A stretch of 64,000 bases of DNA from an uncultured Candidatus Saccharibacteria bacterium (GTDB taxonomy: Bacteria; Patescibacteriota; Minisyncoccia; Phycocordibacterales; UBA5272), in NCBI GenBank assembly GCA_964369115.1, contig CAYJED010000005.1:2237-66236 (forward strand). Direction: 5' to 3'. The translations under genes and the position numbers were made by a program. A model generated the notes under the pieces. It was not told the origin of the DNA. It saw only the letters and a program-made list of their open reading frames with translations, and ran no database searches. Each line of letters opens with the position of its first letter. The stretch's first letter is position 1. Below are positions 14,322 to 62,396 of this stretch, piece by piece.

Positions 14322-14374
14322 ATCCTTTCTGTGGAAATAACGAAAAGGTCTACTGGATACTCTACTATGTTTAA

Positions 14375-14404
14375 TAAAAAAGAAAACCCCCTCGAAAGGG
14401 GGTG
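14375..14404 (-). terminator. Terminator hairpin downstream of thyA
   Basis: accccctcgaaagggggt with a U-run on the minus strand. Confidence 0.45.
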
Positions 14405-14415
14405 GTATGAGAAAG

Positions 14416-15219
14416 CTATTTGGAAACTCTTCCTGTAATCGCCGGGTGGTGCTTGTACCCGATCAGTTCAAAGTCCTCGAACTCATAACCAAAGATGTCT
14501 TCTGGTTTGCGTTTCAGGTGCATTGTTGGGTAAGGGTACGGGTCCCGGGACAACTGCAACTTCACTTGCTCAAGGTGGTTGTTGTAAATATGACAATCAC
14601 CACCAGTCCAAATAAATTCACCAAGCTCAAGATCACATTGCTGTGCCATCATCATGGTGAGGAGAGCGTAGCTTGCGATGTTGAAGGGAACACCAAGGAA
14701 GGTGTCACAGCTGCGCTGATAGAGCTGACAGCTGAGCTTTCCTTCAGAAACATAGAACTGGAAGAGTGCGTGGCACGGCATAAGCGCCATCTTGTCGAGA
14801 TCTCCAACGTTCCACGCTGAAACAATGATGCGACGGGAGTCCGGATTTTGCTTCAGAGTTTTTACCACTTCAGCAATTTGGTCAATGTGCCTCCCGTCGG
14901 CAGTTGGCCACGATCGCCACTGCACACCGTAGACAGGACCAAGAGCACCGTCCTCAGCCGCCCATTCATCCCAAACGGTGCACCCACGCTCTTGTAGCCA
15001 GCGAGCATTGCCATCACCACGCAAGAACCACAGCAGTTCAAGGATGATGGACTTCAGGTGTACCTTCTTGGTGGTGACCAAAGGAAAACCTTCAGCAAGG
15101 TTGAAACGCATCTGGTAACCAAACACCGAAATGGTGCCAGTGCCCGTGCGATCGGTTTTCGGCACGCCGTCTTCAAGGACGTGCCGAGCGAATGTTTCGT
15201 ACTGAGAACTGTCGCTCAT
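14416..15219 (-). CDS. thyA: Thymidylate synthase (ThyA type)
   Basis: Near-canonical ThyA sequence: [42 protein letters not shown] (catalytic Cys), [20 protein letters not shown]. Confidence 0.9.
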
Positions 15220-43259: not shown

Positions 43260-43324
43260 CCCATCTCCACAAAATTAAAATACTCCACCTAAAAGGTGGA
43301 GTATTTTAATTTTGTGGAGATGGG
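43260..43324. repeat. Perfect 30-bp palindrome (inverted repeat with 5-nt loop) overlapping the 3' end of ssrA
   Basis: cccatctccacaaaattaaaatactccacc / taaaa / ggtggagtattttaattttgtggagatggg. Confidence 0.8.
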
Positions 43325-43705
43325 CGGGGTCGAACCGCCGTGTCACATGGTAGTGTATACACTTCTACGATATGTAGTTTGCTTTTTGTGTTCACAGAAG
43401 CAATAAAAAACAAACGAAAGCTACTTCTGTAGAGCATGCGATTATTTCAGATGAAATATGATGCAAGACCTCATCCTACATCTTCTGTCATATTGCTGAG
43501 TTCATTTCCGAAGATACGAAATGAGTCAACACCAGATCGGCCTTAAATTTAGGCGAATGCTGGAACTAGTCCTGCCATATATGGCGAAGGAATAGCCTTA
43601 CCAGTTGATTTTGCAACATGGTTACTCAAACGTTAACGAGTGCTTGAGTACTCTCGATATCGCGCCTACACACTATGCATATGATCGAAGCCAAAGTACA
43701 TCCCC
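43315..43705 (-). ncRNA. ssrA: tmRNA (SsrA)
   Basis: The minus strand 5' end GGGGAUGUACUUUGGCUUCGAUCA matches the tmRNA 5' consensus (GGGGcUGauUcUGGaUUCGAc). The 3' end carries a T-arm GGCGG-UUCGACC-CCGCC followed by CAUCUCC and discriminator A. The acceptor GGGGAUG/CAUCUCC pairs with a G3:U70 wobble. A candidate resume codon GCA sits near nt ~92. The gene is immediately downstream of smpB. Confidence 0.65.
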
Positions 43706-46373: not shown

Positions 46374-46606
46374 GAGCAAACCTTCTCTTTCTTGTTTCAT
46401 CCCTTCAACTATTTGAGGGGATCTTTTTATTATGAGATTTTATTTTTATTTTGTCAAAATATAAAAAAGTTACATAGGCCTTGCCTGTGTAACTTTTTTA
46501 TTCACTTGTTTTTTATAAACAAAGTGCGCCTCCTTGGACCAGAAACCTATGGACCTGTTCGTGTACTAAGGCAAGATTTCTACAGTTAACCAAAAAATAC
46601 TCTGAG

Positions 46607-46679
46607 TGCGCCTACCTGGACTCGAACCAGGGACCAGTCGTGTATAAGACGACGGCTCTACCAACTGAGCTATAGGCGC
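46607..46679 (-). tRNA. tRNA with anticodon UAU (Ile; decodes AUA)
   Basis: The minus strand GCGCCTA-TA-GCTC-AGTTGGTA-GAGC-C-GTCGT-CTTATAC-ACGAC-TGGTC-CCTGG-TTCGAGT-CCAGG-TAGGCGC-A gives a perfect 7-bp acceptor, U8, a GG in the D-loop, a TTCGAGT T-loop, U33, anticodon T34A35T36, and A37. CCA is not encoded. Confidence 0.7.
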
Positions 46680-50574: not shown

Positions 50575-53500
50575 TTATCCTTCGTTACTTGTACTTACGT
50601 TAACTCGTTTTGTTTCTTTTGTTCCTGTTTGGCACGCTGCTGTAAATTCTGTTGTGTAACGAATTTGTCGTACTGTTTTCTTTCCAAGGGCTTTGTAGTC
50701 AGTAGGGTTATCTGTCGGACTGTGACCTGGAGCAAAATTACGAAGAGATGTGCGCAGATTTCTTTTTCCGTTCGGATCATTTCCGTCAGTTTCTTCTGCT
50801 GGACTGCTGAGGATATCATTGATTCCTTTCTCGTAGTCTTTTTGTTCTTGTGAACATGAATTATTTACACAGAGAACTTTTGCGCTAAGGGTACAAGTAT
50901 TATCGGGATACTGAATAGCCCACGTAAGTACTGTTTGACCTCCTTTTTCAATGGTTACAGGAGAAATGTTAAGTAATGCTTTTGGTGATTTTGGTACCAT
51001 ATCGAAATAAACTGACCATGGATCACTTTCGACATTTCCGTGCTTACAGATAATGGTATATGTCGCACTTGCATCAGGTGTAAAGTCTTGTGGCCCACTG
51101 TAGACAGTGTTATCTATTTCTAGTACACCGTTTTTTAGAATTTTCCATGCATTTGCACTAGAACAAATGAAGTTAATGTTTGGTGGAAATCCTGGGAATC
51201 CGTATTCTCCTGTTTTTACAACACCAGTAACTTCAGGGTCTACACATTTTCCTCCAACGCTGTCCCATTTTCCAGGTCCTGCAGTACAAGCAACTGATAC
51301 ATCTTCAGAATCAAGGGGTGGTTCGCCATTATTATAGAGGAATATTTTTACGGTAGATTTTGCAGCGGTGAGATTTATCGGCTGGTTAACTCCACTGTTA
51401 GCTGTATAGACGATGGTGCCATTTGGACTATTATGCGTAATTTGAGATGTTCCTATTGGATCTTGTGTAGACCATGTAGCACGCACCTGACAAGTGCTAT
51501 CTCCTGTTGCGATGCTGCATGACAGTGGTGCAACAGAAAGTGATCCCGTAGGTAGGGTACATGCAGGCTTAGTGACAGATCCGTTGTTACAGTTTCCACC
51601 TGCACATCCTCCATTACCACAAACTACACAACTACCAGCATCCATAACACGATCTGCTGGACAGATATCACATGTTGGTGGATTCGTAGCACCGTTAGCA
51701 CAGGATGGAGGGGTACATACAGGAGGGTTTGCTCCACCGTTATTACAACTTCCGTCTGTACATCCTCCATTTAGACACACTACACAACTACCAGCATCCA
51801 TAACACGATCTGCTGGACAGATATCACATGTTGGTGGATTCGTAGCACCGTTAGCACAAGCATTAGGCTCACAACTGTCTCCATCCCATGATGTACCATT
51901 TGCACAACTTGCTGTAGTGTTTGTTGTGTCAAGAATTGTTCCTCCAACAAGAACTCCAGCATTGTTTACACCTCCATACTGAACACGATAACACCCACCT
52001 GTGTAGCCACTAAACACAGAAGCACTTTGGTCTCCTGTAAGATATGAACCATAGATGCCATTACTACAGTCAGTGAGAATAACAGGGGTTATATTTGCAG
52101 AAGTCCATGTAAGAGTTGGATTACAAGAAGAATTACCAGAGGATACTGTACAAGAAAATGGTTCGTTAGTGAATGATGCTGTTGGTCCTGCATTAGGCGC
52201 GCAATTATCTCCATCCCACGATGTTCCGTTTGCACAGCTAGTTGTAATCACTTTAGTCGCAAGCTCTACGGTGTTGTTGTACAAATAGTAGGTGATTCCA
52301 CTTCCACTGTAAGGAACAGCTACACTGTAGTTATTTTCACTGTCGTCATTGATTTTAACATTAACATTTCCTGTTCTTGTTACAGAGCTTCCTCCAGCAT
52401 TTTGAGGGTAACTAACGCTCCATGATAGTGACACATTACAGGTGCTGTTTCCTGAACTGATAACACAAGAGTTAGCAGAAGAGGTGAGAGTTCCTGACAT
52501 AAGTCGACATCTGTTATCTGTGTGCACATGTCTTCCTGTGTTACATTGTCCAGTAACGTCAATAGTTTTAAGAGTTACCCCATTGTTTTTTAATGAATGT
52601 CTAGATGGTGAAAGGTAACCAAAAGCTGAAACGCTTTTTGTGTCCTCATGTTGTGGACTATAGATTACAGCACTGTCAGAATCTCGTACAATTTGTGTTG
52701 TTGCACTTTCTGGGTTTGTAACTTTCCAATACAAGGTGACAGCACAGTTGGTTGCGTCATCAGCAATGGTACACGTTGTACCACTAGGTGCTGTAAGAGT
52801 TCCAGTCATAGTGCCAGGACATGTAGGGTAGTTCGCATGTCCATTTTTACATGTTCCTGCACATTTCCATGCATTGTCTGCGCCAAATGCATCATAGTTT
52901 GTGTCAGTTGAAACATTACATCCCCATTTAGGAGCGGAACATGAAAGGCTTCCACATTTCCAATTCCAAGCAGCTGCTGTATCTGCTGCATCTGTGAATG
53001 TTCCACTAGAACACGCTACTCCTCCTGAAGGTTGTGCATCAGGATTTTGAATAGTTCCATTTCCTGTACCACATGAGTCAGCGGGTGCCGTTGTCGTAAA
53101 CGTCGCATCTGCTGAGAAGTAGTATGTTCCACCACTATCTCGTACAAATCCTCTGTAGTGGTATGTGGTATTTGCCAACATACTTCCACCGCGCGCATGA
53201 CTAAACACTCCTGTAGACACTCCTCCTGCATTAGTTGTTTCTGCCGAACAGTTAGTTAAAGGATCTACAACTGATCCCCAACAGGTACCACGTTCAGTTA
53301 TTGTTTTTGTTCCTGCTGATCTAAAGTTTGCTCCAAGTGTTGCTCCTGTTGAGGTGATGTTTGATGCAGTAGGGGTGTCGATGACGGGGTTTAAGGTACA
53401 TGCAGGCTTAATGGTAGAGCCGTTATTACAAACATGGTTTGTACATCCCGAACCTTGACAAGCTTCACAGGAGTCACCGTCCCATGCAGAGTTTGAAGCA

Positions 53501-56340
53501 CAGTCTGCTGTAACGTTAACTGTAGCAAGCTCTTTTGAATTGTTGTAAAGTCTGAAGATATGAGGTTTAGGGTATTGCGCACCTGGTATATCCAGTATAT
53601 AGCGAGCTTGAAGGGATTGACTGCCGTTATTGACAGAATTACTAGATGGCCCTCCGCCGTCACCTACAACTTGAGATACTCCACTTGTTGCATTTGTTGT
53701 TGTCCAAGTAAAGAGAGACCAACATGTGCTTGCTCCGTTTAATATAGTACAAGCTTCAGGAGAAGCTGAGAGAGTTCCTGACATGGCACTTGGTGCCGTT
53801 GTCGTAAACGTCGCATCTGCTGAGAAGTAGTATGTTCCACCACTATCTCGTACAAATCCTCTGTAGTGGTATGTGGTATTTGCCAACATACTTCCACCGC
53901 GCGCATGACTAAACACTCCTGTAGACACTCCTCCTGCATTAGTTGTTTCTGCCGAACAGTTAGTTAAAGGATCTACAACTGATCCCCAACAGGTACCACG
54001 TTCAGTTATTGTTTTTGTTCCTGCTGATCTAAAGTTTGCTCCAAGTGTTGCTCCTGTTGAGGTGATGTTTGATGCAGTAGGGGTGTCGATGACGGGGTTT
54101 AAGGTACATGCAGGCTTGATGGTAGAGCCGTTATTACAAACATGATTTGTACATCCTCCATTTTGACAAGCTTCACAGGAGTCACCGTCCCACACAGATC
54201 CTGAAGCACAGTCTGCGGTAACGTTAACTGTAGCAAGCTCTTTTGAATTGTTGTAAAGTCTGAAGGTGTGAGGGTTAGGGTATTGAGCGTTTGGTATATA
54301 GCGAGCTTGAAGGGATTGACTGCCGTTATTGACAGAATTACTAGATGGCCCTCCGCCGTCACCTACAACTTGAGATACTCCACTTGTTGCATTTGTTGTT
54401 GTCCAAGTAAAGAGAGACCAACATGTGCTTGCTCCGTTTAATATAGTACAAGCTTCAGGAGAAGCTGAGAGAGTTCCTGACATACCACCTGCCGCCGCTG
54501 TCGTAAACGTCGCATCTGCTGAGTAGTAGTATGTTCCACCACTGTCTCGTACAAACCCTCTATAGTGGTATGTGGTATTTGCCAACATACTTCCACGCGC
54601 ATGGCTAAATACTCCTGTTGCTGTACTTCCTTCTGCCACACAGTTACTTGAAGGATTTGCAAGTGATCCCCAACAGGTACCACGTTCAGTTATTGTTTTT
54701 GTTCCTGCTGATCTAAAGTTTGCTCCAAGTGTTGCTCCTGTTGAGGTGATGTTTGATGCAGTAGGGGTGTCGATGACGGGGTTTAAGGTACATGCAGGCT
54801 TGATGGTAGAGCCGTTATTACAAACATGATTTGTACATCCTCCATTTTGACAAGCTTCACAGGAGTCACCGTCCCACACAGATCCTGAAGCACAGTCTGC
54901 GGTAACGTTAACTGTAGCAAGCTCTTTTGAATTGTTGTAAAGTCTGAAGGTGTGAGGGTTAGGGTATTGAGCGTTTGGTATATAGCGAGCTTGAAGGGAT
55001 TGACTGCCGTTATTGACAGAATTACTAGATGGCCCTCCGCCGTCACCTACAACTTGAGATACTCCACTTGTTGCATTTGTTGTTGTCCAAGTAAAGAGAG
55101 ACCAACATGTGCTTGCTCCGTTTAATATAGTACAAGCTTCAGGAGAAGCTGAGAGAGTTCCTGACATACCACCTGCCGCCGCTGTCGTAAACGTCGCATC
55201 TGCTGAGTAGTAGTATGTTCCACCACTGTCTCGTACAAACCCTCTATAGTGGTATGTGGTATTTGCCAACATACTTCCACGCGCATGGCTAAATACTCCT
55301 GTTGCTGTACTTCCTTCTGCCACACAGTTACTTGAAGGATTTGCAAGTGATCCCCAACAGGTACCACGTTCAGTTATTGTTTTTGTTCCTGCTGATCTAA
55401 AGTTTGCTCCAAGTGTTGCTCCTGTTGAGGTGATGTTTGATGCAGTAGGGGTGTCGATGACGGGGTTTAAGGTACATGCAGGCTTAATGGTGGAGCCATT
55501 TGTACAACTCAGACTACCGTCAGGGTCACTGACACTTCCTCCTGTACCTGTACATCCGCTATTACCACATGCAACACACCCTGACCCTGCTGTAAAGTAT
55601 TTCCCGTCGAGACAGCGAGTTACTGTTTCTTGAATAGAAGAAGTCGCACTCTTTGTGCCATTTTTTACAACGTAGTCTGTATTTCTAACACACCCCACAT
55701 CTCCTTCTTGGGCATTTGTGTTGCTATTTCCTGATGCGCTTGTGAATGTCCCAAACACTTTCCATGCAGTATCAGTGTTCCATGAGTTGTTTGCACAAGA
55801 TCCGGTGAGTCTATATCTGTCTGAGTACGTTGCGCCATTTGTAGAGCTCCATGTTTTTGTATTTGCGGTTCCTGCTGGATAGCTGATGGTAGAGACGTTG
55901 GTACCATATGAGCCGGCGGTTATTTTAAGTGAGGCAGTTGGGTCTGCAGCGACACATGCACTACCGTTCCAAGAAGGCCTTCCTAGTGAAAGTGAACCAC
56001 CACAGTCTTCTACAGTAAGAGTATCCGATCCAGTTACTGAATCGCGTGTACACGTAAAACTAAAAGTATCAACTGTTTTAATACTAGCAAAAGTGGCACT
56101 ACCGTTTCCGGCTCGACGGCTTCCGTTCCACTGTACACCGTTTTGGTCTATAATATCATTTGGATTGCCGGTATACGTACTATTTGCATCACAGTCAGTT
56201 GCATTTAGAACAGACCAGTTGATGGTGGCATCTTTTCCTCTCTCTATCGTTTTAGCATAGGTGGTAGTTGTAGAAATAATGACTAAAAGTAAAGAAAAAA
56301 GAATACCGCGAATAATAAGTTTATAGCTATTGTATACCAT
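50575..56340 (-). CDS. Giant secreted/cell-surface protein (1921 aa), Cys/Thr/Ser/Gly/Asn-rich with internal tandem repeats
   Basis: N-terminal signal/anchor MVYNSYKLIIRGILFSLLLVIISTTTTYA. There are four ~228-aa repeats (NGSTIKPACTLNPVIDTPTASNITSTGATLGANFRSAGTKTITERGTCWGS...YHYRGFVRDSGGTYY...), a duplicated Cys-rich module (CANGATNPPTCDICPADRVMDAGSCVVC x2), and a conserved C-terminal ~130-aa domain shared with the 60711-62396 protein. Confidence 0.7.
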   Translation of the reverse strand: MVYNSYKLIIRGILFSLLLVIISTTTTYAKTIERGKDATINWSVLNATDCDANSTYTGNPNDIIDQNGVQWNGSRRAGNGSATFASIKTVDTFSFTCTRDSVTGSDTLTVEDCGGSLSLGRPSWNGSACVAADPTASLKITAGSYGTNVSTISYPAGTANTKTWSSTNGATYSDRYRLTGSCANNSWNTDTAWKVFGTFTSASGNSNTNAQEGDVGCVRNTDYVVKNGTKSATSSIQETVTRCLDGKYFTAGSGCVACGNSGCTGTGGSVSDPDGSLSCTNGSTIKPACTLNPVIDTPTASNITSTGATLGANFRSAGTKTITERGTCWGSLANPSSNCVAEGSTATGVFSHARGSMLANTTYHYRGFVRDSGGTYYYSADATFTTAAAGGMSGTLSASPEACTILNGASTCWSLFTWTTTNATSGVSQVVGDGGGPSSNSVNNGSQSLQARYIPNAQYPNPHTFRLYNNSKELATVNVTADCASGSVWDGDSCEACQNGGCTNHVCNNGSTIKPACTLNPVIDTPTASNITSTGATLGANFRSAGTKTITERGTCWGSLANPSSNCVAEGSTATGVFSHARGSMLANTTYHYRGFVRDSGGTYYYSADATFTTAAAGGMSGTLSASPEACTILNGASTCWSLFTWTTTNATSGVSQVVGDGGGPSSNSVNNGSQSLQARYIPNAQYPNPHTFRLYNNSKELATVNVTADCASGSVWDGDSCEACQNGGCTNHVCNNGSTIKPACTLNPVIDTPTASNITSTGATLGANFRSAGTKTITERGTCWGSVVDPLTNCSAETTNAGGVSTGVFSHARGGSMLANTTYHYRGFVRDSGGTYYFSADATFTTTAPSAMSGTLSASPEACTILNGASTCWSLFTWTTTNATSGVSQVVGDGGGPSSNSVNNGSQSLQARYILDIPGAQYPKPHIFRLYNNSKELATVNVTADCASNSAWDGDSCEACQGSGCTNHVCNNGSTIKPACTLNPVIDTPTASNITSTGATLGANFRSAGTKTITERGTCWGSVVDPLTNCSAETTNAGGVSTGVFSHARGGSMLANTTYHYRGFVRDSGGTYYFSADATFTTTAPADSCGTGNGTIQNPDAQPSGGVACSSGTFTDAADTAAAWNWKCGSLSCSAPKWGCNVSTDTNYDAFGADNAWKCAGTCKNGHANYPTCPGTMTGTLTAPSGTTCTIADDATNCAVTLYWKVTNPESATTQIVRDSDSAVIYSPQHEDTKSVSAFGYLSPSRHSLKNNGVTLKTIDVTGQCNTGRHVHTDNRCRLMSGTLTSSANSCVISSGNSTCNVSLSWSVSYPQNAGGSSVTRTGNVNVKINDDSENNYSVAVPYSGSGITYYLYNNTVELATKVITTSCANGTSWDGDNCAPNAGPTASFTNEPFSCTVSSGNSSCNPTLTWTSANITPVILTDCSNGIYGSYLTGDQSASVFSGYTGGCYRVQYGGVNNAGVLVGGTILDTTNTTASCANGTSWDGDSCEPNACANGATNPPTCDICPADRVMDAGSCVVCLNGGCTDGSCNNGGANPPVCTPPSCANGATNPPTCDICPADRVMDAGSCVVCGNGGCAGGNCNNGSVTKPACTLPTGSLSVAPLSCSIATGDSTCQVRATWSTQDPIGTSQITHNSPNGTIVYTANSGVNQPINLTAAKSTVKIFLYNNGEPPLDSEDVSVACTAGPGKWDSVGGKCVDPEVTGVVKTGEYGFPGFPPNINFICSSANAWKILKNGVLEIDNTVYSGPQDFTPDASATYTIICKHGNVESDPWSVYFDMVPKSPKALLNISPVTIEKGGQTVLTWAIQYPDNTCTLSAKVLCVNNSCSQEQKDYEKGINDILSSPAEETDGNDPNGKRNLRTSLRNFAPGHSPTDNPTDYKALGKKTVRQIRYTTEFTAACQTGTKETKRVNVSTSNEG
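52720..55494 (-). repeat. Four in-frame tandem repeats of ~684 nt inside the giant gene (two copies nucleotide-identical, two diverged)
   Basis: The ORF track shows identical translated sub-ORFs at a 684-nt offset (54099-54362 = 54783-55046, and 54438-54683 = 55122-55367). Diverged copies lie at 53391-53663 and 53739-53939. Confidence 0.8.
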
Positions 56341-56492
56341 ATATTTTAGTATATCTCCCTGTAACCTTCTTTACCTCTGGGCTATACACAGTAAAGAGAA
56401 TAAAAGAAGTAAATTAGTAGATTTGCGGCATGTGTTAGATTTAAGTTTTTCTTTATTGTATTTTTGGTATAGAATTAAGATAATAAAAGCAT

Positions 56493-56813
56493 ATGCGGAT
56501 TCATATTTTTAAATTAAAAAAAAATACTGAATTTCTTCTAAAGCAGTGGGGAGAAGAAGTTTCTTCTGATAGTAAAGAAGAAGCGATTCAAAGTCTTTTA
56601 GAAGAAAACTGCCTTGAAGAATCATTACGAATTTTTAAAATTAACAATGATATGTATCTTGTTGGTGTAATGGTAGCCTTAGATTCAAAAGGTCTTTTTG
56701 AACCAAATCAAAAAAGATCTATAAATAAAAAACACTTTTCTATTTTAAAAGAATGCATAGAAGAAGAAATTTCTCAAGATAAAATTTACAACGTTCGTGC
56801 AGATAAAAAATGA
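56493..56813 (+). CDS. Small protein upstream of the SagB-YcaO fusion (possible leader-peptide-binding/RRE-like accessory protein; hypothetical)
   Basis: 106-aa ORF whose stop overlaps the start of the downstream enzyme (ATGA), indicating translational coupling. No catalytic motif. The sequence is not Cys/Ser/Thr-rich, so it is not itself the precursor. Confidence 0.35.
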   Translation: MRIHIFKLKKNTEFLLKQWGEEVSSDSKEEAIQSLLEENCLEESLRIFKINNDMYLVGVMVALDSKGLFEPNQKRSINKKHFSILKECIEEEISQDKIYNVRADKK

Positions 56814-59041
56814 TAGAAAAAACTCCACTTAAAGAAAAAAAACCTATAATACATTCTTTTGGTAAATATGAGAGCGGTTTTTTTTCTTTTGTAAATTACT
56901 GGGGAGAGATCTCTTTTGAGGTAGATGAGATGATAGCAGAAAAAATAAACAGTATTTGCTTTAAATGTACCGGAACTAACTCTGTAGCAGAAATAATTAA
57001 ATCTTTTAACAAAGATGAAGAGGTGGAGTTGCTAGAGATCTTCGAGTTATTATTTGATAATAAGGTGATTTTTGATTCAAGAGAGTTTTATAAAATTTTT
57101 CATGAAGCATCAGAGTCTCCTTCTCGCTATACTTACAGTTTTTCTGACGATGAGATTAATTCTTTTAAAGCAAAATGCAGAAGTATAGTTCATCCAGAAG
57201 GGGAACTTATTTCTTTGAGAACTGTTTCAAATACTTTATTTACTGATCTTGTCTTAAATAGAAAATCTATTAGAAATTTTTCTGGAGCATCTATAACTGA
57301 TCAAGAGTTATCTGACCTTCTGATCTTATCATATTCAACAAATAGGCATAAGTCGACGCCGTCCGGTGGAGGGTTCTATCCTTTGCGTGTATATTTTTTG
57401 CTTCGTCTTAAAACTGAATCTTTAAGCCCGGGTCTGTATTTTTATAACCACGAAAAATCTTGTATCGTTAAAGTTTCAGAGCTTCCTCTTTTAAAAGATG
57501 AGTATTTTGAAGTTGTTTTAGGGGCACCTATGTATAACAGCAGTTCTGTAGTTATTTTTGTAGGATGTGATTTTAATTTAGTTACTAAAAAATATGCAAA
57601 TAGAGCATATAGGATGGCTCTTCTTGAAGCTGGTCATCTATGTCAAAATGTTTATCTATGCACTTCAAAAACTGAACTTGGTGTGGTTGAATACGGCGGG
57701 TGGAACGATGAAGTTCTCGAGTTTTTGCTAGATATAAAAGATAAAAATATTTTAATTCTTTCTACTTTATTTATCGGACATAAACAAGAAAATAGCTCTT
57801 CTGAGAACAAAACATTTGAAGATATTGAAGAAAAGCTAAGATCTAGTATTTGTCTTAAAGATTCTGGTATTGTTCGTTTTTTTGAGACGGAGTTATTTCA
57901 TTTTAATAATTACATTATGCCTGGATACGCCTCAGTTGCGAGATATGTTAGAGATAGAGATTTAGATAAAAGAAATCCAAAACTTTACTCAGCATTTGGT
58001 TTTGCTAAAACAATATCTGAATCAAGAGTTAAGGCTATTGCAGAAGCTTTCGAGAGATATGTCTCTGGCAGATATAGAGTCGATGAAATTGTTATACCAA
58101 ATAATGCTAAAGAAAAGTTTTTTAATATACTTGAAAATACACATCAAGATATTTTGTATATGAAAGAAAATAATTTATCAATTATTGACTATACAAAAAA
58201 ATGTTCTGTAGTATGGGCTTCGTACCTCCTTGATTCCAATAAAAATGATTATTGCTATGTTCCTGTCGATCATGTTTTTTATCCTATAAGTAAAAAAGAT
58301 GTTTTGCATGATATTTCTTTCCATTCTAATTCTACAGGGGTTGCAGCTCATACCCACTATGAAACAGCAGTTAAAAAAGCATTATTTGAATTAGTGGAAA
58401 GAGATGCTGTTGCGGTCATGTGGTTTTCTAAGATCTCACCAAAAAAAATAGATACCAAATCACTTCCTGAGGATCTTTTTCTTAGGGTTGAGGCTCTTCA
58501 AAAAATCGGCAGGGAGGTTGTTTTTTTTGACATAACAACAGACTCAGTTCCTGTTATTTTATGTTTATGTTATGGTGATTTTTTTCCTATGACAACCTCA
58601 GGGTGTTCTGCTCAAGAGGATCCTGTGGAGGCATGTAGAAAAGCTTTAGATGAAGCAGAATTTATTTTCAACTCCTGGAAAAGAGTTAAAAGAGAAAAGA
58701 AGGAATATTTTGAAGTTAAGTCAGCGACTGATCATGGTGATCTTTTTGCGTGGACAAACCTTAAAGAAGACCATAATTTAAAATGGCTTTTAGAAGGTCG
58801 TGTTATATCTATGCCTGCTGCCAAACAGGATGTTTATTCTAGTTTATTAAAAACACATAACCCCGTAGTTGTTCTCCTTTCCATGAAACATGAACCTCTT
58901 TTTGTTGTAAGAGTTTTGTCTAAAACATTGTATCCTTTTACTTTTGGATACGGTTCTGAGTTTTATGGACACCAAAGATTGAAGATGTTAGGATTAAAGT
59001 GGGGTCAGAATTACCCGTCTTTTCCCCATTTAATTGCATAA
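56810..59041 (+). CDS. Fused SagB-type (nitroreductase-fold, FMN-dependent) dehydrogenase / YcaO-domain cyclodehydratase, a TOMM/LAP-type azol(in)e-forming RiPP enzyme
   Basis: The N-terminal half has NRKSIRNF and TPSGGGFYPLRVY (SagB/McbC-type motifs RxSxRxF and PSAGxxYP). The C-terminal half has the YcaO motifs FGFAKTISESRVKAIAEAFERYVSG and SNSTGVAAHTHYETAVKKALFELVERDAV (ATP/Mg-binding ExxER...ERD). Confidence 0.7.
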   Translation: MIEKTPLKEKKPIIHSFGKYESGFFSFVNYWGEISFEVDEMIAEKINSICFKCTGTNSVAEIIKSFNKDEEVELLEIFELLFDNKVIFDSREFYKIFHEASESPSRYTYSFSDDEINSFKAKCRSIVHPEGELISLRTVSNTLFTDLVLNRKSIRNFSGASITDQELSDLLILSYSTNRHKSTPSGGGFYPLRVYFLLRLKTESLSPGLYFYNHEKSCIVKVSELPLLKDEYFEVVLGAPMYNSSSVVIFVGCDFNLVTKKYANRAYRMALLEAGHLCQNVYLCTSKTELGVVEYGGWNDEVLEFLLDIKDKNILILSTLFIGHKQENSSSENKTFEDIEEKLRSSICLKDSGIVRFFETELFHFNNYIMPGYASVARYVRDRDLDKRNPKLYSAFGFAKTISESRVKAIAEAFERYVSGRYRVDEIVIPNNAKEKFFNILENTHQDILYMKENNLSIIDYTKKCSVVWASYLLDSNKNDYCYVPVDHVFYPISKKDVLHDISFHSNSTGVAAHTHYETAVKKALFELVERDAVAVMWFSKISPKKIDTKSLPEDLFLRVEALQKIGREVVFFDITTDSVPVILCLCYGDFFPMTTSGCSAQEDPVEACRKALDEAEFIFNSWKRVKREKKEYFEVKSATDHGDLFAWTNLKEDHNLKWLLEGRVISMPAAKQDVYSSLLKTHNPVVVLLSMKHEPLFVVRVLSKTLYPFTFGYGSEFYGHQRLKMLGLKWGQNYPSFPHLIA

Positions 59042-59046
59042 AACAA

Positions 59047-59145
59047 ATGAGTACTTTAAAGCTTAAAGTTACATCAAAAAGTCACAAGCAAGTTGTAAGC
59101 TCAGCTAGTCTGTGCTTAACATCTACAAGTTCTTGTGACGATTAG
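59047..59145 (+). CDS. Candidate RiPP precursor peptide (32 aa) with Cys/Ser/Thr-rich core
   Basis: MSTLKLKVTSKSHKQVVSSASLCLTSTSSCDD. It starts 6 nt after the enzyme stop and is followed by an AT-rich hairpin (59166-59202). It is not in the ORF track because it is shorter than 60 aa. Confidence 0.45.
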   Translation: MSTLKLKVTSKSHKQVVSSASLCLTSTSSCDD

Positions 59146-59375
59146 TTTTTTGTTTTGATTTCATACTAAAAATACTTTATGTTTATCATAAAGTATTTTT
59201 AGTTATGTGTTTATTTTTTCTTAGTTTTAATTACTTTGAATTACGAAATACCAAAACTCCCCAAAACCAGTCTCACTTACAAAAGACCATCTACTTACAG
59301 AGCTGGTCTTCCTTAGCTTACTCTAAGTAGAGCTTTATGCACAGAAAAGATACACAGGGGAAATAAGACTATAGT

Positions 59376-59408
59376 ATAAAAAAAGACTGTGTATTTCTAC
59401 ACAGTCCT
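59376..59408 (-). terminator. Terminator downstream of the GC-rich lipoprotein gene
   Basis: gactgtgta-tttc-tacacagtc preceded on plus by an A-run. Confidence 0.4.
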
Positions 59409-59425
59409 TATGGAATAGTGAGGTG

Positions 59426-60472
59426 TTACCGATTGGTAAACACCATCACGAGCACAATCAGTTCGAATTTTTCGGCATTCCCGGTATAGAGCACAGACTC
59501 AACACCAGTAGTAGAAAGCATGCGAAGCACGTGACGGCTAAACCTGTCCACGTATACGTAGTCGCCATTTGTCGTTTGGGCTGAGGTGTACCATGTCGGC
59601 TTATCAGGAGGCACGCGAAGATATCCGTCCTGAAGCAGGACGTAGGTCACGCCAGCTGGTGCTTCTGGGAGATCCTTCAGTTCCATGGTCATCGGGTCAA
59701 GGAAAATGTCATTGTAGCGGATTTTCCCTTCACCGGTTGGGGCTGCACAGGAGTGTGGAATGGTGCCGTCAGGCTGTGGCTGCGTCGCGGGAGCGCAGCT
59801 CGCCACTGTAGCATATTTTGTCTTGTTCTTGGCCAACACCTTGGTACCATCAGGCATGATCTTCGCAGGGAATCCGTTGTCGGTCGGATTATACGTCAAG
59901 ATGAGGTCAGTGTAGACGATTTTTTCTTGAGCCTTCGTCGTGAACGTGAGCGTTGCACTCACGGCGGCAGAAGTCCCTCCCGGGCCACTGCCTTGCACGT
60001 TCGTGGTCGACACTTGGCAGACGGTCGAGAACGGCATGGTGCCGGTGATCGTCACTGCAAAACGTGCGGTCGAGTTGGCGGTGTCAAGCGTCATGATCGT
60101 CGTGCTTGCGACGTCCGCACCTCCGCAGGTGGTGCGGAAAGTACCCGTTGCCGAGTCCATCTGACCACCACCGTTACGGAAGTTGAGGTGTGCGGCGAAG
60201 TTCGTGACGTCCACACCGGTTGCACCGTTATCGGGTGCGGTCGATGCGAGCGTCAGGCTCGGAGGGGCGGGTGGCGGGTTCACGCAGACGCCATTCTGAA
60301 GCACCTGAGGTGCCACGCAAGTGGGCGGAGTGGTGGAGCCACCACCACCACCCCCGCCACCACAGGCGACCAAGCTGGCGATGAGGCCAAGCATCACCAC
60401 ACAGGTGATGACGAAGCGCGCGAAGCGCGCCTTCTCGTCTCCACCAAAGGTGAAGATTTTCATGTTGTTCAT
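59426..60472 (-). CDS. Lipoprotein of unknown function on a high-GC (~60%) island (probable horizontal acquisition)
   Basis: Start likely MNNMKIF, preceded by aaaGGAAGcaccATG. Signal peptide with lipobox LVAC followed by a GGGGGGGGSTTPP linker. The GC shift is abrupt at both ends (~59430 and ~60480). A terminator lies at 59376-59408. Confidence 0.5.
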   Translation of the reverse strand: MNNMKIFTFGGDEKARFARFVITCVVMLGLIASLVACGGGGGGGGSTTPPTCVAPQVLQNGVCVNPPPAPPSLTLASTAPDNGATGVDVTNFAAHLNFRNGGGQMDSATGTFRTTCGGADVASTTIMTLDTANSTARFAVTITGTMPFSTVCQVSTTNVQGSGPGGTSAAVSATLTFTTKAQEKIVYTDLILTYNPTDNGFPAKIMPDGTKVLAKNKTKYATVASCAPATQPQPDGTIPHSCAAPTGEGKIRYNDIFLDPMTMELKDLPEAPAGVTYVLLQDGYLRVPPDKPTWYTSAQTTNGDYVYVDRFSRHVLRMLSTTGVESVLYTGNAEKFELIVLVMVFTNR

Positions 60473-60710
60473 GGTGCTTCCTTTCTGCCCGAAGGCAAAG
60501 ACACACAAAAGGTTTTCAAACCTTCTGTTTGGCGTGTTCAAAAATACAAAGAAATGAGCCTTTTTCATATCTGCTTTAGTCTAGTATTGCATAGACTTCG
60601 GCAGGTATGATAAGTATCTCTCCACATATTACACTACACCTATTTTAAAAACTTGTCAAGTATCCGCAATGTTAACAATTTTTTGTGTACATACAAGCAG
60701 AGAACATTTT

Positions 60711-62396
60711 TTATAGTTCACTACTATCTTTTACCACCTGAACACGTCGTGTTTCTTTGGTGATCCCATCACAGGTAAGAGTAAATTCCATTGAATGTTC
60801 AACATTGAACGTCTTTTTCCCAAGTGCTCGCCATAGCGGTTCTTCATACCCTGGTGCAAAGTACTTAAGCGCATCTTGAATAGGGCGAGTAGTATTTGGA
60901 TCGTTTATATCAGTTGAACTTGAAGTTAAAATAGTATTTACATCGTCCTCAAAAGATGTCTGATCAGGTGTACAGATGTTATTAGTGCAAACTGCTTTTG
61001 CTGTTATTTGACAATCCTCGGTAGGATATTCAATGTCCCACGAAACAACAGTATCTTCATCTTTAGTAACACTTTTCGGATAGACACTTAGGGTTATGGT
61101 AGGTGGTGGTGGAGGTGGCAAATCATAGCGCACAGTGAAAGGCACAGGGTTTCTATATGATCCGTTTCGAGCATAAATGACGAAGTTTGCTGTCTGATTA
61201 ATTTCTACATTTGTGACACCAGAGTACGTACCTGTTGCTACAAGATTTCCTGATGGTAGAGGTGAGGTATAGATTTCATAAGCATCGGATCCTGTTAATT
61301 CAAACGTAATAACTCCTGGTGCTAAATACCAGTTACCTGATGAATATCCGTAACTTATTTGAGGGTTGACACACGTTGATGAGATGGTGTCCCATCCACC
61401 TGAAGAACATGAAGTAGTTACCGTAACTGGACCTGAAAGAAGTTGTCCTGCGTCATAGAGGTACATATCTGTAGCAGGAAATTCTCCAGTTAGAGTAAAA
61501 TTTTGTGCGGTACCAAAATATCCCGTAAACACAGTTGTGTTATCTGGATTATTACGGGTAACTGCTGGTGTGCCTATAGGGTAGCCTGTAGACCATGTGG
61601 CGCTGTACTGACAAGAGCTTTCTCCAACAGGGATAACACAGCTAAGTGGTGTAACATCAAGTGTACCAATTGCTGTACGTACCATAAATCCTTGCCAGAA
61701 ACTGCAGTTATTGTCTTCTGCTGTAGATGATGGCTTTTCAGTAATGAGACCAAGATCACCTGAAGATGATTTGTCTGCACAGGTTCGTACGCTATAAAAC
61801 CCATTTTCAGAAAAAAGGTGGGTGTAGGTGACGACCCTCGCGCCTGTTGCTGAAAGTGAGGCAGTGGACGTTGCTGGCATATCTGTAATCACAGCATCTT
61901 TTTCTATTTGAAAAAAAACATTAAAAGATGAGCCGGTTGTATCTGTGCCTATATTTCGTATAACACTTTCAAAAGTTGTCGGTATACCAGTACGAAGACT
62001 GCCAGAAAACTGATCATCTGTTGTAACGGAGTCTGCTGTGAGATCGGGGTCACGTGTTACGGTGATGGAAGCAAATAGAGGAAATGTAACATTACCTGAC
62101 TTATCTCCATTCTCATAACAAGTGAGACGGTATGTAACGGTGCCTGAATCTAGTTCGCTAAGATTTGTAAACGAAGAGGGAGGGATAAATTCTGCCCAAC
62201 TGTTTGTCCAATCACCTGTTGTTTCTTGTTTGTCGATAACACAGATACCGTACCCTGTATCATCTACGGTAACGTTATAGGTTTCTCCTAGTGTTACTGA
62301 TGATGTTGATGTAGTTATTCCTGCAAACGAAGTAGCACCGTTAGATAATAATAAAAACAGAGAAACTAAAACTATTTTTTTAGAAAAAGTATACAT
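60711..62396 (-). CDS. Secreted surface protein, paralogous to the giant protein (shared internal module and conserved C-terminal domain)
   Basis: Signal peptide MYTFSKKIVLVSLFLLLSNGATSFA. LDVTPLSCVIPVGESSCQYSATWSTGYPIGT is close to the giant protein's LSVAPLSCSIATGDSTCQVRATWSTQDPIGT. The C-terminal ~130 aa (VVSWDIEYPTEDCQITAKAVCTNNICTPDQ...FAPGYEEPLWRALGKKT...EFTLTCDGITKETRRVQV) align with the giant protein's C-terminus. Confidence 0.6.
   Translation of the reverse strand: MYTFSKKIVLVSLFLLLSNGATSFAGITTSTSSVTLGETYNVTVDDTGYGICVIDKQETTGDWTNSWAEFIPPSSFTNLSELDSGTVTYRLTCYENGDKSGNVTFPLFASITVTRDPDLTADSVTTDDQFSGSLRTGIPTTFESVIRNIGTDTTGSSFNVFFQIEKDAVITDMPATSTASLSATGARVVTYTHLFSENGFYSVRTCADKSSSGDLGLITEKPSSTAEDNNCSFWQGFMVRTAIGTLDVTPLSCVIPVGESSCQYSATWSTGYPIGTPAVTRNNPDNTTVFTGYFGTAQNFTLTGEFPATDMYLYDAGQLLSGPVTVTTSCSSGGWDTISSTCVNPQISYGYSSGNWYLAPGVITFELTGSDAYEIYTSPLPSGNLVATGTYSGVTNVEINQTANFVIYARNGSYRNPVPFTVRYDLPPPPPPTITLSVYPKSVTKDEDTVVSWDIEYPTEDCQITAKAVCTNNICTPDQTSFEDDVNTILTSSSTDINDPNTTRPIQDALKYFAPGYEEPLWRALGKKTFNVEHSMEFTLTCDGITKETRRVQVVKDSSEL

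What the first reader, a model, noticed from the sequence alone, without database searches (positions are those of the whole stretch)
59426..60480. Abrupt ~60% GC lipoprotein gene embedded in a ~38% GC genome (probable recent horizontal acquisition)
Base composition switches sharply at ~59430 and ~60480. The enclosed gene encodes a lipoprotein (lipobox LVAC, Gly8 linker) whose codon usage (GCC/GGC/CGC-rich) is completely unlike that of neighbouring genes. A donor with a high-GC genome is implied. The gene retains a host-like SD and terminator, so it is probably expressed. Its position next to the RiPP locus and surface-protein paralogs suggests a role in a cell-surface or interaction function.
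Basis: seen in the sequence. Interest (0 to 1): 0.55.

Follow-up and report, generated by a model that had tools for sequence, protein, structure and literature searches.

The report
Foreign-looking mosaic lipoprotein gene in CPR bacterium
A GC-rich surface-lipoprotein gene sits in a low-GC ultra-small (Paceibacterota/CPR) bacterial genome; it does come from high-GC proteobacteria, but it fills a conserved slot in related genomes and is rebuilt module by module, so it is not a single recent insertion.

Summary
Window 59426-60472 (- strand) is one 348-codon gene at 57% GC and GC3 0.66. The other ORFs in the window average 39% GC and GC3 0.29 (z = 4.8 and 5.9; tetranucleotide z = 5.9). It encodes a lipoprotein precursor: LVAC lipobox, Gly8, Pro-rich tether, an Ig-like N-domain and a roughly 165-aa beta-rich C-domain with no family or fold match. 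The host is a Paceibacterota (CPR) bacterium.

Proteobacterial origin is supported. Homologues are compositionally native in two 65-69% GC proteobacterial-type contigs.

"Recent acquisition of the gene" is too simple.
- Related Paceibacterota (SecD 70-79% identical) carry a homologue in the same slot (secDF, lipoprotein, giant surface protein). It lies behind the same native-type promoter, and every copy is GC3-rich.
- Alleles within the species are mosaics, with breakpoints at the leader and at the N/C domain junction.
- Outside its own population, the N-module's only DNA-level relative is in a Burkholderiales-like genome (79% identity). There the gene is a GC-poor island.

Best reading: a resident surface lipoprotein of foreign origin, kept unameliorated by repeated module-level recombination and import. 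Function is inferred only. Novelty and interest are moderate.

The parts
59426..60472 (-). CDS of the lipoprotein precursor (348 aa plus TAA stop). Gene callers extend it to 60568 (380 aa, P0001), but that extension is 5' leader.
   Evidence: GC 57.2% and GC3 0.66.
60362..60472 (-). Type II (lipoprotein) signal peptide, residues 1-37. It has an n-region with K/R, the h-region FVITCVVMLGLIAS, and the lipobox LVAC with Cys37.
   Evidence: Translation. It is the only lipobox-type ORF my heuristic found in the window.
60275..60361 (-). Gly8 tract plus a Pro/Thr-rich tether carrying a Cys-X-Cys mini-hairpin (residues 38-66). This stretch is highly variable between alleles, with indels.
   Evidence: Low pLDDT for residues 32-45.
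59927..60274 (-). N-module: a beta-sandwich Ig-like domain (residues about 67-182), GC3 0.71. It is 98-99% identical to the L002/L004 alleles, about 82-85% to the L094 allele, and 78.8% at DNA level to a Burkholderiales-like contig (L005/L006).
   Evidence: Big_5 (PF13205) hits in 5 of 14 family members.
59429..59926 (-). C-module: an all-beta domain of about 166 aa (about 13 strands). Invariant residues are Y187, N216, C226, G236, C242, W294 and G303. GC3 is 0.60. There is no Pfam, NCBIfam, PDB or BFVD match. It is replaced by an unrelated module in the conspecific alleles P0002/P0003.
60473..60624 (-). Low-GC 5' leader of about 150 nt. It contains a terminator-like hairpin (60528-60505), the small hairpin GCC-UUCG-GGC (60496-60487) and the SD-like AGAAAGGAAG (60486-60477). 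It is about 95% identical in conspecific alleles. Other genera have the same layout (a hairpin immediately 5' of the SD).
60631..60659 (-). Promoter-like TTGACA (60659-60654), 17-nt spacer, TAGTGT (60636-60631). The same CTTGACAA-N17-TAGTAT/TACAGT motif precedes the homologous gene in L085, L087 and L088.
   Evidence: Read. The consensus scan did not list it because the -10 matches only 3 of 6 positions. Inferred, not shown to function.
59382..59409 (-). Intrinsic-terminator-like hairpin (12 pairs) followed by a T-run, 17 nt after the stop codon.
60711..62396 (-). Upstream neighbour: a 561-aa secreted surface protein with native composition (GC3 0.26). Its C-terminal 310 aa or so are paralogous (37% identity) to the C-terminus of the giant protein. 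It belongs to the same variable surface island.
50575..56340 (-). Giant 1921-aa Cys-rich repeat surface protein (native GC3 0.28). In other genera the lipoprotein gene lies directly upstream of the equivalent giant gene.

Best explanation
The segment is a real, intact and apparently expressed gene for a cell-surface lipoprotein of a Paceibacterota (CPR/Patescibacteria) bacterium. The protein has a type II signal peptide with an LVAC lipobox, a Gly8/Pro-rich tether, an Ig-like stalk domain and a beta-rich head domain of about 165 aa with no assigned fold.

The family originated in high-GC Pseudomonadota, where distant members are compositionally native. In this CPR lineage the gene is not a fresh insertion. 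It occupies a conserved slot (secF-secD, lipoprotein, giant surface protein) under native promoter, leader and terminator.

Inferred mechanism. The coding sequence is overwritten repeatedly by homologous recombination at module boundaries: the leader or poly-Gly region, and the N/C domain junction. The incoming DNA comes from a shared pool of alleles that includes copies in Burkholderiales-like bacteria. This continued influx keeps the CDS far from the host's composition. It would also explain why the GC step coincides exactly with the start and stop codons.

Inferred function. The protein is a membrane-tethered binding or anchoring protein of the variable surface island. It probably acts with the adjacent giant adhesin-like protein in contact with another cell (host or partner). 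Diversifying pressure would explain the module swapping.
For: 1. The compositional anomaly lies at synonymous sites.

2. The host is Paceibacterota. FtsH is 86% identical to Candidatus Paceibacterota MAGs, and all close hits are Patescibacteria.

3. The family is small: 34 hits among 1.84 billion representative proteins. The architecture is conserved.

4. Native copies exist in high-GC proteobacterial-type contigs.
- L093: 297-kb contig with RND pump, MltA, ApaG, GGDEF-EAL and IS110; GC3 0.85 against 0.89-0.96 for neighbours.
- L098: GC3 0.74 against 0.71-0.78.

5. The slot is shared and every copy is GC3-rich.
- L085, L087 and L088 have gene GC3 of 0.57-0.73 against 0.26-0.38 for neighbours.
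- SecD is 70-79% and RecG 73% identical between these genomes, but the lipoproteins are only 31-44% identical.

6. The same promoter motif and a leader of about 100-215 nt precede each copy.

7. Alleles are mosaics.
- Window vs L002/L004 (core 99.6% identical): leader about 95%, signal peptide and linker scrambled, N-domain 98-99%, C-domain unrelated.
- Window vs L094: the surrounding island and the C-domain are 100% identical, but the 5' half of the gene is only about 82%.

8. Cross-phylum sharing.
- The N-module is 78.8% identical at DNA level to L005/L006.
- The flanks of L005/L006 (DnaE2, rhodanese, YdeI) are 69% GC. Their best plasmid-database matches are Methylibium, Variovorax, Comamonas and Polaromonas.
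- There the gene is GC-poor: GC3 0.57-0.77 against 0.86-0.93.
- The window gene has no DNA-level similarity to the copies in the other CPR genera.

9. The C-domain tree interleaves CPR and non-CPR copies. P0004 + P0008 + P0039 group with 94% bootstrap.

10. No integrase, IS element or tRNA abuts the gene, and there are no repeated cassettes in the window.

11. A divergent Lnt homologue occurs in the conspecific contig. DsbB occurs beside secDF in L094.
Against: - The donor pool is barely sampled. Only one non-CPR context close to the window allele is unambiguous on both sides (L005/L006).
- L003 and L091 have high-GC genes on one side only and 45-47% GC on the other.
- L085 carries an unexplained high-GC block of at least 6.8 kb next to secF. 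Some 'contexts' could therefore be chimeric or island-in-island.
- The NJ tree is weakly supported outside one node, and its root is arbitrary.
- 79% DNA identity is not very recent, so the direction and number of transfers are inferred from composition only.
- The polarised-substitution test for ongoing amelioration is only suggestive (GC->AT 22 vs AT->GC 11).
- Pattern scans of 185,579 representative genomes found no family member. Both that scan and the first metagenome scan were probably swamped by the generic lipobox pattern.
- No expression, lipidation or binding data exist. Lgt and LspA were not found in the parts of the genome I could see.
Confidence: 0.55

Rival explanations
1. Simple recent horizontal acquisition. 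One high-GC donor gene was inserted recently into this genome and has not yet had time to ameliorate.
For: - Strong GC, GC3 and tetranucleotide deviation.
- Native homologues in high-GC Pseudomonadota.
- 79% DNA identity of one module to a Burkholderiales-like contig.
- An excess of GC->AT changes in CPR branches, though weak.
Against: - Homologues sit in the same slot behind the same promoter type in other genera whose SecD is only 70-79% identical.
- The compositional step coincides with the start and stop codons, and the leader and terminator are native.
- There are no mobility genes or insertion scars.
- GC3 of 0.66 is well below that of any identified native donor copy (0.74-0.85).
Confidence: 0.15
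2. Single ancient acquisition in the ancestor of these Paceibacterota, followed by vertical descent. The GC-rich state is maintained by a gene-specific force: GC-biased gene conversion at a recombination hot spot, or selection on mRNA or codon properties. The copies in proteobacteria that are GC-poor for their hosts are exports from CPR.
For: - Conserved slot and promoter across genera.
- The gene is demonstrably a recombination hot spot.
- CPR-context copies cluster in one part of the C-domain tree, with GC-depressed non-CPR copies nested inside.
- In L005, L003 and L091 the gene is GC-poorer than its neighbours.
Against: - A GC3 excess of about 0.35 over the genome is far larger than gBGC effects reported in bacteria (my own knowledge of Lassalle et al. 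2015, not checked here).
- Highly expressed native genes in the window (S6, IF3, SSB, FtsH) have GC3 of 0.35 or less, so expression-linked codon bias does not point towards GC.
- The window allele's nearest DNA relative outside its own population is proteobacterial, not another CPR genus.
- CPR branches show more GC->AT than AT->GC changes, which is not the equilibrium pattern, though the evidence is weak.
Confidence: 0.2
3. Assembly artefact: a contaminant high-GC fragment mis-joined into a CPR contig.
For: MAG origin. One related contig (L085) does show an abrupt large high-GC block that could be a chimeric join.
Against: - Identical junctions occur in a second assembly (L001) and in four other runs (L094-L097), with 100% identical flanks.
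- Syntenic GC-rich homologues occur in JGI, ENA and Logan assemblies.
- The anomaly starts at the ATG and ends at the stop of one intact ORF that has a native SD and terminator.
Confidence: 0.02
4. No foreign origin: the GC richness only reflects the Gly/Ala/Pro/Thr-rich amino-acid composition, or translational selection in a highly expressed native gene.
For: The protein is rich in G, A, P and T. Neighbouring surface proteins also have raised GC2 (0.50-0.58) and total GC of 41-44%.
Against: - GC3 is 0.66 against 0.26-0.28 for those same neighbours.
- Synonymous choice is inverted within every codon family.
- Homologues exist in proteobacterial genomes, with DNA-level identity.
Confidence: 0.03

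Closest known systems
Horizontally acquired compositional islands / xenologous genes (Lawrence-Ochman amelioration framework); HGT into Patescibacteria as surveyed in PMC12455944
   Same: - Atypical GC, GC3 and oligonucleotide signature.
- Phylogeny incongruent with the host.
- Native homologues in another phylum.
- Rare Pseudomonadota-to-Paceibacteria transfers are already reported (PMC12455944).
   Different: - No mobility genes or insertion scars.
- The anomaly is confined exactly to a CDS under native signals.
- The same slot holds a GC-rich homologue across genera, so the state is persistent rather than transient.
- In the proteobacterial partner the gene is anomalous in the opposite direction.
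Mosaic, recombination-driven variable surface proteins/lipoproteins of bacteria (for example Neisseria Opa/TbpB/fHbp-type mosaic alleles, Borrelia and Mycoplasma variable lipoproteins); comparison from my own knowledge
   Same: - A surface-exposed lipoprotein with a flexible tether.
- Alleles differ by whole modules with sharp breakpoints.
- It sits in a hypervariable surface-protein island.
   Different: - No silent cassette archive or repeats in the 64-kb window.
- No sequence or family relationship to those proteins.
- The exchange partners include a different phylum.
- Phase-variation machinery was not identified.
Big_5 (PF13205) bacterial Ig-like domain surface proteins
   Same: The N-module is a beta-sandwich. 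Five of 14 family members hit PF13205 (best E = 7.5e-6). Foldseek finds Ig-domain proteins, including the Ig-like domains of mycobacterial L,D-transpeptidases, CD22 and the Sap S-layer protein.
   Different: The window protein itself gives no Pfam hit at E <= 1. The TM-scores are low (about 0.2) because only one domain matches. The C-module has no counterpart in that family.
Beta-propeller repeat proteins (Kelch/NHL/virginiamycin B lyase-like)
   Same: The only weak structural neighbours of the C-module are propeller blades. The module has about 13 strands, roughly three four-stranded sheets.
   Different: Best E = 0.011 and TM <= 0.33. There are no repeat motifs in the sequence and no closed propeller in the model. 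It should not be filed there.

Membership tests
Bacterial lipoprotein (Lgt/LspA substrate) | N-terminal signal peptide with a positively charged n-region, a hydrophobic h-region and the lipobox [LVI][ASTVI][GAS]C | tested here: met
   MNNMKIFTFGGDEKARFARFVITCVVMLGLIAS-LVAC37. The ACGGGG motif is nearly invariant across the family.
Bacterial lipoprotein (Lgt/LspA substrate) | The host encodes the maturation enzymes Lgt and LspA (plus or minus Lnt) | tested here: inconclusive
   Neither Lgt nor LspA is among the 20 window ORFs scanned. A full-length but sub-threshold Lnt homologue (TIGR00546, 108.8 bits against a cutoff of 132.9) lies on the conspecific contig L002. The rest of the genome was not available.
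Bacterial lipoprotein (Lgt/LspA substrate) | Actual lipid modification of the Cys and surface localisation | not testable with these tools
   Needs proteomics, globomycin or labelling experiments.
Horizontally transferred gene | Composition (GC, GC3, codon use, tetranucleotides) deviates significantly from the host | tested here: met
   z = 4.8 (GC), 5.9 (GC3) and 5.9 (tetranucleotide).
Horizontally transferred gene | Homologues that are compositionally native in a candidate donor lineage | tested here: met
   L093 (69% GC; gene GC3 0.85 vs 0.89-0.96) and L098 (65% GC; 0.74 vs 0.71-0.78).
Horizontally transferred gene | Gene tree incongruent with the organism tree | tested here: met
   - The CPR L087 C-domain is 61% identical to L003, a contig whose upstream genes are proteobacterial-type but whose context is one-sided. 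It is 44-51% identical to other CPR copies.
- One clade has 94% bootstrap support.
- The window N-module matches Burkholderiales-like L005 at DNA level but matches no other CPR genus.
- The tree is otherwise weakly resolved.
Horizontally transferred gene | Recent: absent from close relatives, or flanked by mobility genes or insertion scars | tested here: not met
   The gene is present at the same slot in the conspecific and congeneric contigs and in other genera. No integrase, IS element, tRNA or direct repeats lie at the borders. Only modules within the gene are recent.
Big_5 (PF13205) Ig-like domain | Significant match to the Pfam model | tested here: inconclusive
   The window protein gives no hit at E <= 1. 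Five of 14 homologues hit, best E = 7.5e-6. The AF2 model of residues 67-182 is a beta-sandwich with pLDDT of about 90.
Beta-propeller superfamily (C-module) | Structural superposition on propeller blades with a significant score | tested here: not met
Cassette-based antigenic variation or DGR target | Silent donor cassettes or a template repeat (plus reverse transcriptase) near the expressed gene | tested here: not met
   blastn and tblastn of the gene against the whole window find only the gene itself. This covers the 64-kb window only.

The most novel reading that the evidence does not exclude
The lipoprotein family is a gene that moves in both directions between a Paceibacterota episymbiont and its Burkholderiales host. 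Its intermediate GC3 (0.55-0.75) in both a 29%-GC3 genome and a 90%-GC3 genome would then be the footprint of sustained bidirectional exchange between physically associated cells. The protein would be a host-derived (mimetic) surface module used for attachment. If so, the gene identifies the otherwise unknown host of this CPR lineage and gives a sequence-only way to pair CPR bacteria with their hosts.
Probability: 0.2. Interest if true: 0.8.

Novelty: new variant of a known kind. Interest (0 to 1): 0.5.

Why it matters
Hosts and attachment factors are unknown for almost all Paceibacterota. This gene is a surface lipoprotein kept at a fixed locus beside giant adhesin-like proteins. It is rebuilt by module swapping, and it shares DNA-level identity with a gene in Burkholderiales-like bacteria. 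That makes it a concrete candidate both for a host-contact protein and for a genetic trace of who the partner is.

It is also a caution for compositional HGT detection. An unameliorated gene need not be a recent arrival if recombination keeps re-importing it. Finally, the C-terminal domain is a confidently modelled domain (pLDDT 93) with no family or fold assignment.

Tried and rejected
- Pfam and NCBIfam scans of the protein gave nothing above cutoff. The only hit was a sub-threshold 'invert_tail' match on the signal peptide/poly-Gly stretch.
- A PDB sequence-profile search gave nothing meaningful.
- tblastn against 72,556 plasmids and 50,697 phages found no match, and a viral-contig scan found none. 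A plasmid or phage vector is therefore unsupported.
- Pattern scans of GTDB representative genomes and of metagenome contigs with the full-length alignment returned only false positives from the lipobox pattern. A C-domain-only alignment recovered just two already-known loci.
- Cluster look-ups gave no organism names.
- The silent-cassette or DGR idea was rejected because the window holds no repeated copy.
- The highly-expressed-gene codon-bias idea was rejected because native S6, IF3, SSB and FtsH have GC3 of 0.35 or less.
- The riboswitch idea for the leader was not supported. Rfam at gathering threshold finds only tmRNA and a tRNA in the window, and leader lengths differ between genera (about 100-215 nt).
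- The polarised substitution test was too small to decide.
- The DNA of the P0008 contig could not be retrieved.
Full report
**1. The observation**

The composition profile shows GC of 28-34% up to about 59400. It then runs at 49-66% through 59400-60500 and falls back to 34%.

The whole window is 39.8% GC, with an SD of 3.7% for 1-kb windows. The peak 1-kb window, starting at 59501, is 58.1%.

The anomaly corresponds to one ORF on the minus strand. Read from the ATG at 60472 it is 348 codons plus a TAA stop at 59428-59426. Gene callers extend it in frame to 60568 (380 aa, P0001). That extension is low-GC leader with no ribosome-binding site.

I compared it with 43 other long ORFs of the window.
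- Gene GC is 57.2% against 39.2 +/- 3.8% (z = 4.8).
- GC3 is 0.656 against 0.290 +/- 0.063 (z = 5.9).
- Synonymous usage is inverted in every family: GCC 0.33 vs 0.06, ACC+ACG 0.77 vs 0.29, GTG 0.67 vs 0.20, CGC 0.55 vs 0.13, GAC 0.76 vs 0.30, AAG 0.62 vs 0.28.

The tetranucleotide profile is the most deviant in the window. Its L1 distance has z = 5.9, and its correlation with the rest of the window is -0.19 against a mean of 0.78.

Neighbouring surface-protein genes are also rich in Gly, Thr and Ala (GC2 0.50-0.58) but have GC3 of 0.26-0.28. Amino-acid composition therefore does not explain the signal.

The lipobox (L34-V35-A36-C37) and the Gly8 run are present. An AGAAAGGAAG Shine-Dalgarno-like element precedes the ATG. 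A 12-bp hairpin plus T-run follows the stop at 59409-59382.

- 57% GC rather than 60%, and a 40% background rather than 38%.
- 348 aa is the precursor; the mature protein is 312 aa.

**2. Not an assembly artefact**

A Logan assembly of run ERR4405440 reproduces 7,619 bp across both junctions at 100% identity.

Four further runs carry the same gene order with an allelic variant, P0036 (SRR26856460 and SRR28520270/76/77; loci L094-L097). Their flanks are 97-100% identical on both sides of the GC-rich CDS.

Homologous GC-rich genes in the same genomic position appear in JGI, ENA and Logan assemblies of other populations.

**3. The host**

The window's FtsH is 77-86% identical to FtsH of MAGs labelled Candidatus Paceibacterota, Nomurabacteria or Parcubacteria. 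Every close hit is a Patescibacteria (CPR) genome.

Other window features fit this placement: an IleRS with an inserted histidine-phosphatase domain, many TTG starts, and giant Cys-rich surface proteins.

**4. The protein**

There is no Pfam or NCBIfam family for the window protein and no PDB relative by sequence profile.

An exhaustive HMMER scan of 1.84 billion cluster representatives finds only 34 proteins at E <= 1e-3 and 14 at E <= 1e-10. The family is small.

Members share one architecture:
- a signal peptide ending in ...A-C-G-G-G-G(G)n;
- a Pro-rich linker;
- an N-domain of about 115 aa (PF13205 Big_5 in 5 of 14 members);
- a C-domain of about 165 aa with invariant Y187, N216, C226, G236, C242, W294 and G303, usually ending ...M-V-F-S-N.

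AlphaFold2 models are confident: pLDDT 84.9 for the whole protein, and 93.3 (pTM 0.88) for the C-domain alone.

The N-domain is a beta-sandwich that attracts only generic Ig-domain hits. The C-domain is all-beta with about 13 strands. Its best structural neighbours are beta-propeller blades at non-significant scores: E >= 0.011 and TM <= 0.33 against PDB, with a similar result against BFVD. I treat its fold as unassigned.

Modules are shuffled within the family.
- P0002/P0003 have the window's N-domain but an unrelated C-domain ('type B').
- P0031 has N + C + type B.
- P0012 has the C-domain only.

**5. Where the family is compositionally at home**

Two members are compositionally native in high-GC contigs with proteobacterial gene content.
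- P0050 lies on a 297-kb, 69% GC contig with an RND pump, MltA, ApaG, GGDEF-EAL and IS110. Its GC3 is 0.85 against 0.89-0.96 for neighbours. That contig's Rpe best matches Comamonas, Aeromonas and Acinetobacter.
- P0031 lies on a 65% GC contig with CHAT, caspase, a sigma-70 factor and a PG_binding protein. Its GC3 is 0.74 against 0.71-0.78.

No CPR copy is anywhere near CPR composition.

**6. Why 'recent acquisition' is too simple**

*(a) Conserved slot.* The homologue sits between secF-secD and a giant surface-protein gene in L085 (P0010) and L087 (P0039). In L085, RecG and FtsH follow further on, as in the window. In L088-L090 (P0037) the homologue lies directly upstream of a giant surface-protein gene. 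The gene two positions upstream there shows no similarity to SecD.

SecD is 70-79% and RecG 73% identical between these genomes and the window. The lipoproteins are only 31-44% identical.

*(b) Every copy is GC3-rich.* The values are 0.61, 0.73 and 0.57, against 0.26-0.38 for their neighbours.

*(c) Shared native expression signals.* Each copy is preceded by the same low-GC promoter-like motif: CTTGACAA, 17 nt, then TAGTAT, TAGTGT or TACAGT. A leader of about 100-215 nt follows, ending in a small hairpin immediately 5' of the SD. GC jumps at the start codon.

*(d) No mobility signature.* There is no integrase, IS element, tRNA or direct repeat at the borders.

A neutral gene inherited since the divergence of these genera should have ameliorated at synonymous sites. 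This one has not.

**7. The gene is a mosaic that is being rewritten**

*Window vs L002.* L002 is conspecific: 99.6% DNA identity over 5.2 kb around recG, and RecG itself is 100% identical. Its lipoprotein gene aligns in a patchwork, as does the same allele in L004:
- promoter and leader about 95% identical;
- signal peptide and linker scrambled, with indels;
- N-domain 98-99% identical;
- after ...FTTKA (window position about 59927), completely unrelated sequence.

*Window vs L094.* The pattern is reversed.
- SecD DNA is only 83-93% identical.
- The island 62355-55478 is 97-100% identical. This includes the 561-aa gene, the lipoprotein C-domain, the YcaO locus and the start of the giant gene.
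- Inside that island, a stretch of about 600 bp (60557-59970: signal peptide, linker and N-domain) is only about 82% identical.

Recombination tracts therefore end at the leader and at the domain junction. That would explain why the compositional step matches the CDS borders.

The L002 copy carries frameshifts around the signal peptide and poly-Gly region, whereas L004 is intact. I cannot tell decay from assembly indels.

**8. Cross-phylum sharing**

Outside its own population, the window gene has only two DNA-level matches. One is the N-module in L005/L006, at 78.8% over 335 nt. The other is a 52-nt stretch in L003. Nothing matches in L085, L087 or L088.

L005 and L006 come from two different samples. 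In both, the gene is flanked on both sides by roughly 70% GC genes: DnaE2/ImuC, a rhodanese and YdeI. The DnaE2 best matches Methylibium, Variovorax, Comamonas and Polaromonas at 64-67%. I call this organism Burkholderiales-like on that basis only.

There the full gene encodes a lipoprotein with an LLMAC lipobox, and it is a GC-poor island. GC3 is 0.77 for the N-module and 0.57 for the C-module, against 0.86-0.93 for the flanks.

The closest full-length and C-domain relatives, P0006 (L091) and P0004 (L003), also sit next to higher-GC genes and are GC-poorer than them: 0.55 vs 0.70, and 0.53 vs 0.69. L003's upstream neighbours are an EAL-domain fragment and a PemK toxin. Both contigs are short, and their other flank is 45-47% GC, so I treat those contexts as ambiguous.

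In an NJ tree of the C-domain, CPR and non-CPR copies interleave. P0004 + P0008 + P0039 group at 94% bootstrap, and other nodes are weak.

**9. Interpretation**

*Shown:*
- a real, intact gene with foreign codon usage;
- a lipoprotein-type signal;
- a conserved slot with native expression signals;
- mosaic alleles;
- native relatives in high-GC proteobacterial-type genomes;
- one module shared at 79% DNA identity with a Burkholderiales-like genome, where it is anomalous in the opposite direction.

*Inferred, mechanism:* the coding region is renewed repeatedly by homologous recombination with alleles from a pool shared with high-GC bacteria. This keeps it unameliorated. The exchange may run both ways.

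*Inferred, function:* the protein is tethered to the outer face of the CPR membrane by its lipid anchor and Gly/Pro tether. It presents an Ig-like stalk and a binding head, and it works with the adjacent giant adhesin-like protein in contact with another cell. Support for the functional inference is indirect:
- conserved gene adjacency;
- conserved Cys pairs, plus a DsbB gene beside secDF in L094;
- a divergent Lnt homologue in the conspecific contig.

DNA uptake by CPR bacteria through competence and pilus systems is established background knowledge. I did not test it here.

The main rival is a single ancient acquisition whose GC is held up by biased gene conversion or selection, with exports back to proteobacteria. 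It explains the conserved slot and the GC-depressed proteobacterial copies. It has two weaknesses:
- it needs an unusually strong gene-specific force;
- it does not explain why the window's N-module resembles a proteobacterial copy more than any other CPR copy.

A small polarised-substitution count in the CPR branches leans towards ongoing amelioration but is not significant (GC->AT 22, AT->GC 11).

**10. Comparison with what is known, and novelty**

HGT into Patescibacteria, including rare Pseudomonadota-to-Paceibacteria events, has been surveyed (PMC12455944). My two literature searches returned nothing that describes this family or this pattern.

The kind of event (a xenologous surface gene, a compositional island) is known. 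The variant is unusual in four ways:
- a persistent, CDS-exact anomaly at a conserved locus across genera;
- module-level rewriting of the gene;
- reciprocal compositional anomaly in a second phylum;
- an unassigned C-terminal fold.

I rate it a new variant of a known kind, of moderate interest. It would be of high interest if the exchange partner proves to be the physical host.

**11. Caveats**

- Sampling of the family is thin, and organism assignments for non-CPR contigs rest on a few flanking genes.
- L085 contains an unexplained high-GC block of at least 6.8 kb abutting secF. This may be a chimera or a large island.
- The tree root is arbitrary.
- Nothing about expression, lipidation or binding was tested.

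Noticed in passing
window 13713-15219 (- strand): A second GC-rich patch. Thymidylate synthase ThyA (14416-15219; 478 bits to NF002497; GC 51%, GC3 0.58) lies next to a DHFR-like gene (13713-14321; GC3 0.40), against a host mean GC3 of 0.29. This may be another foreign gene pair.
   Followed up: partly
window 56330-59041: The YcaO-nitroreductase fusion (743 aa) and the DUF6176 gene form a low-GC patch (26-37% in 200-bp windows). It is inserted on the opposite strand between the lipoprotein gene and the giant surface-protein gene. It is present in the window and in L094, but absent from the conspecific contig L002 and from L085 and L087. It therefore looks like a separate accessory insertion, not a partner of the lipoprotein.
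   Followed up: partly
window 55478-62355 vs L094 5100-12024: The whole surface/RiPP island is 97-100% identical between the window and L094, whereas the adjacent secD is only 83-93% identical. This suggests recent transfer of a roughly 7-kb island between diverged Paceibacterota populations.
   Followed up: partly
L085 1-6800: A block of 56-71% GC abuts CPR-type secF, with an abrupt drop to 30-40% GC. It encodes a DUF4952 protein, a DUF642 plus PEP-CTERM protein, and several ORFs with no Pfam hit. It could be a chimeric join or a large high-GC island next to the same locus.
   Followed up: no
window 60711-62396 and 50575-56340: The 561-aa protein and the 1921-aa giant protein share a C-terminal region of about 310 aa (37% identity). 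This may be a common anchoring or secretion domain of this surface-protein family.
   Followed up: no
L002 about 9890-10060: The conspecific copy of the lipoprotein gene is out of frame around the signal peptide and poly-Gly tract. The gene call P0003 starts inside a frame-shifted Gly run. The same allele in L004 is intact. This could be a pseudogene, slipped-strand variation or assembly indels.
   Followed up: partly
L088 2370-2666: The leader region upstream of the homologous lipoprotein gene is tandemly duplicated. Two copies of about 150 nt give the repeated in-frame peptide HKKHDK...LWVFLKP.
   Followed up: no
window 22488-26003: The isoleucyl-tRNA synthetase (1171 aa) carries a histidine-phosphatase (His_Phos_1) domain inserted at residues 529-689 within the catalytic domain.
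   Followed up: no
window 43312-43705 and 46606-46679: tmRNA (86.8 bits) and a tRNA-Ile with anticodon TAT. These are the only RNA genes detected in the window.
   Followed up: no
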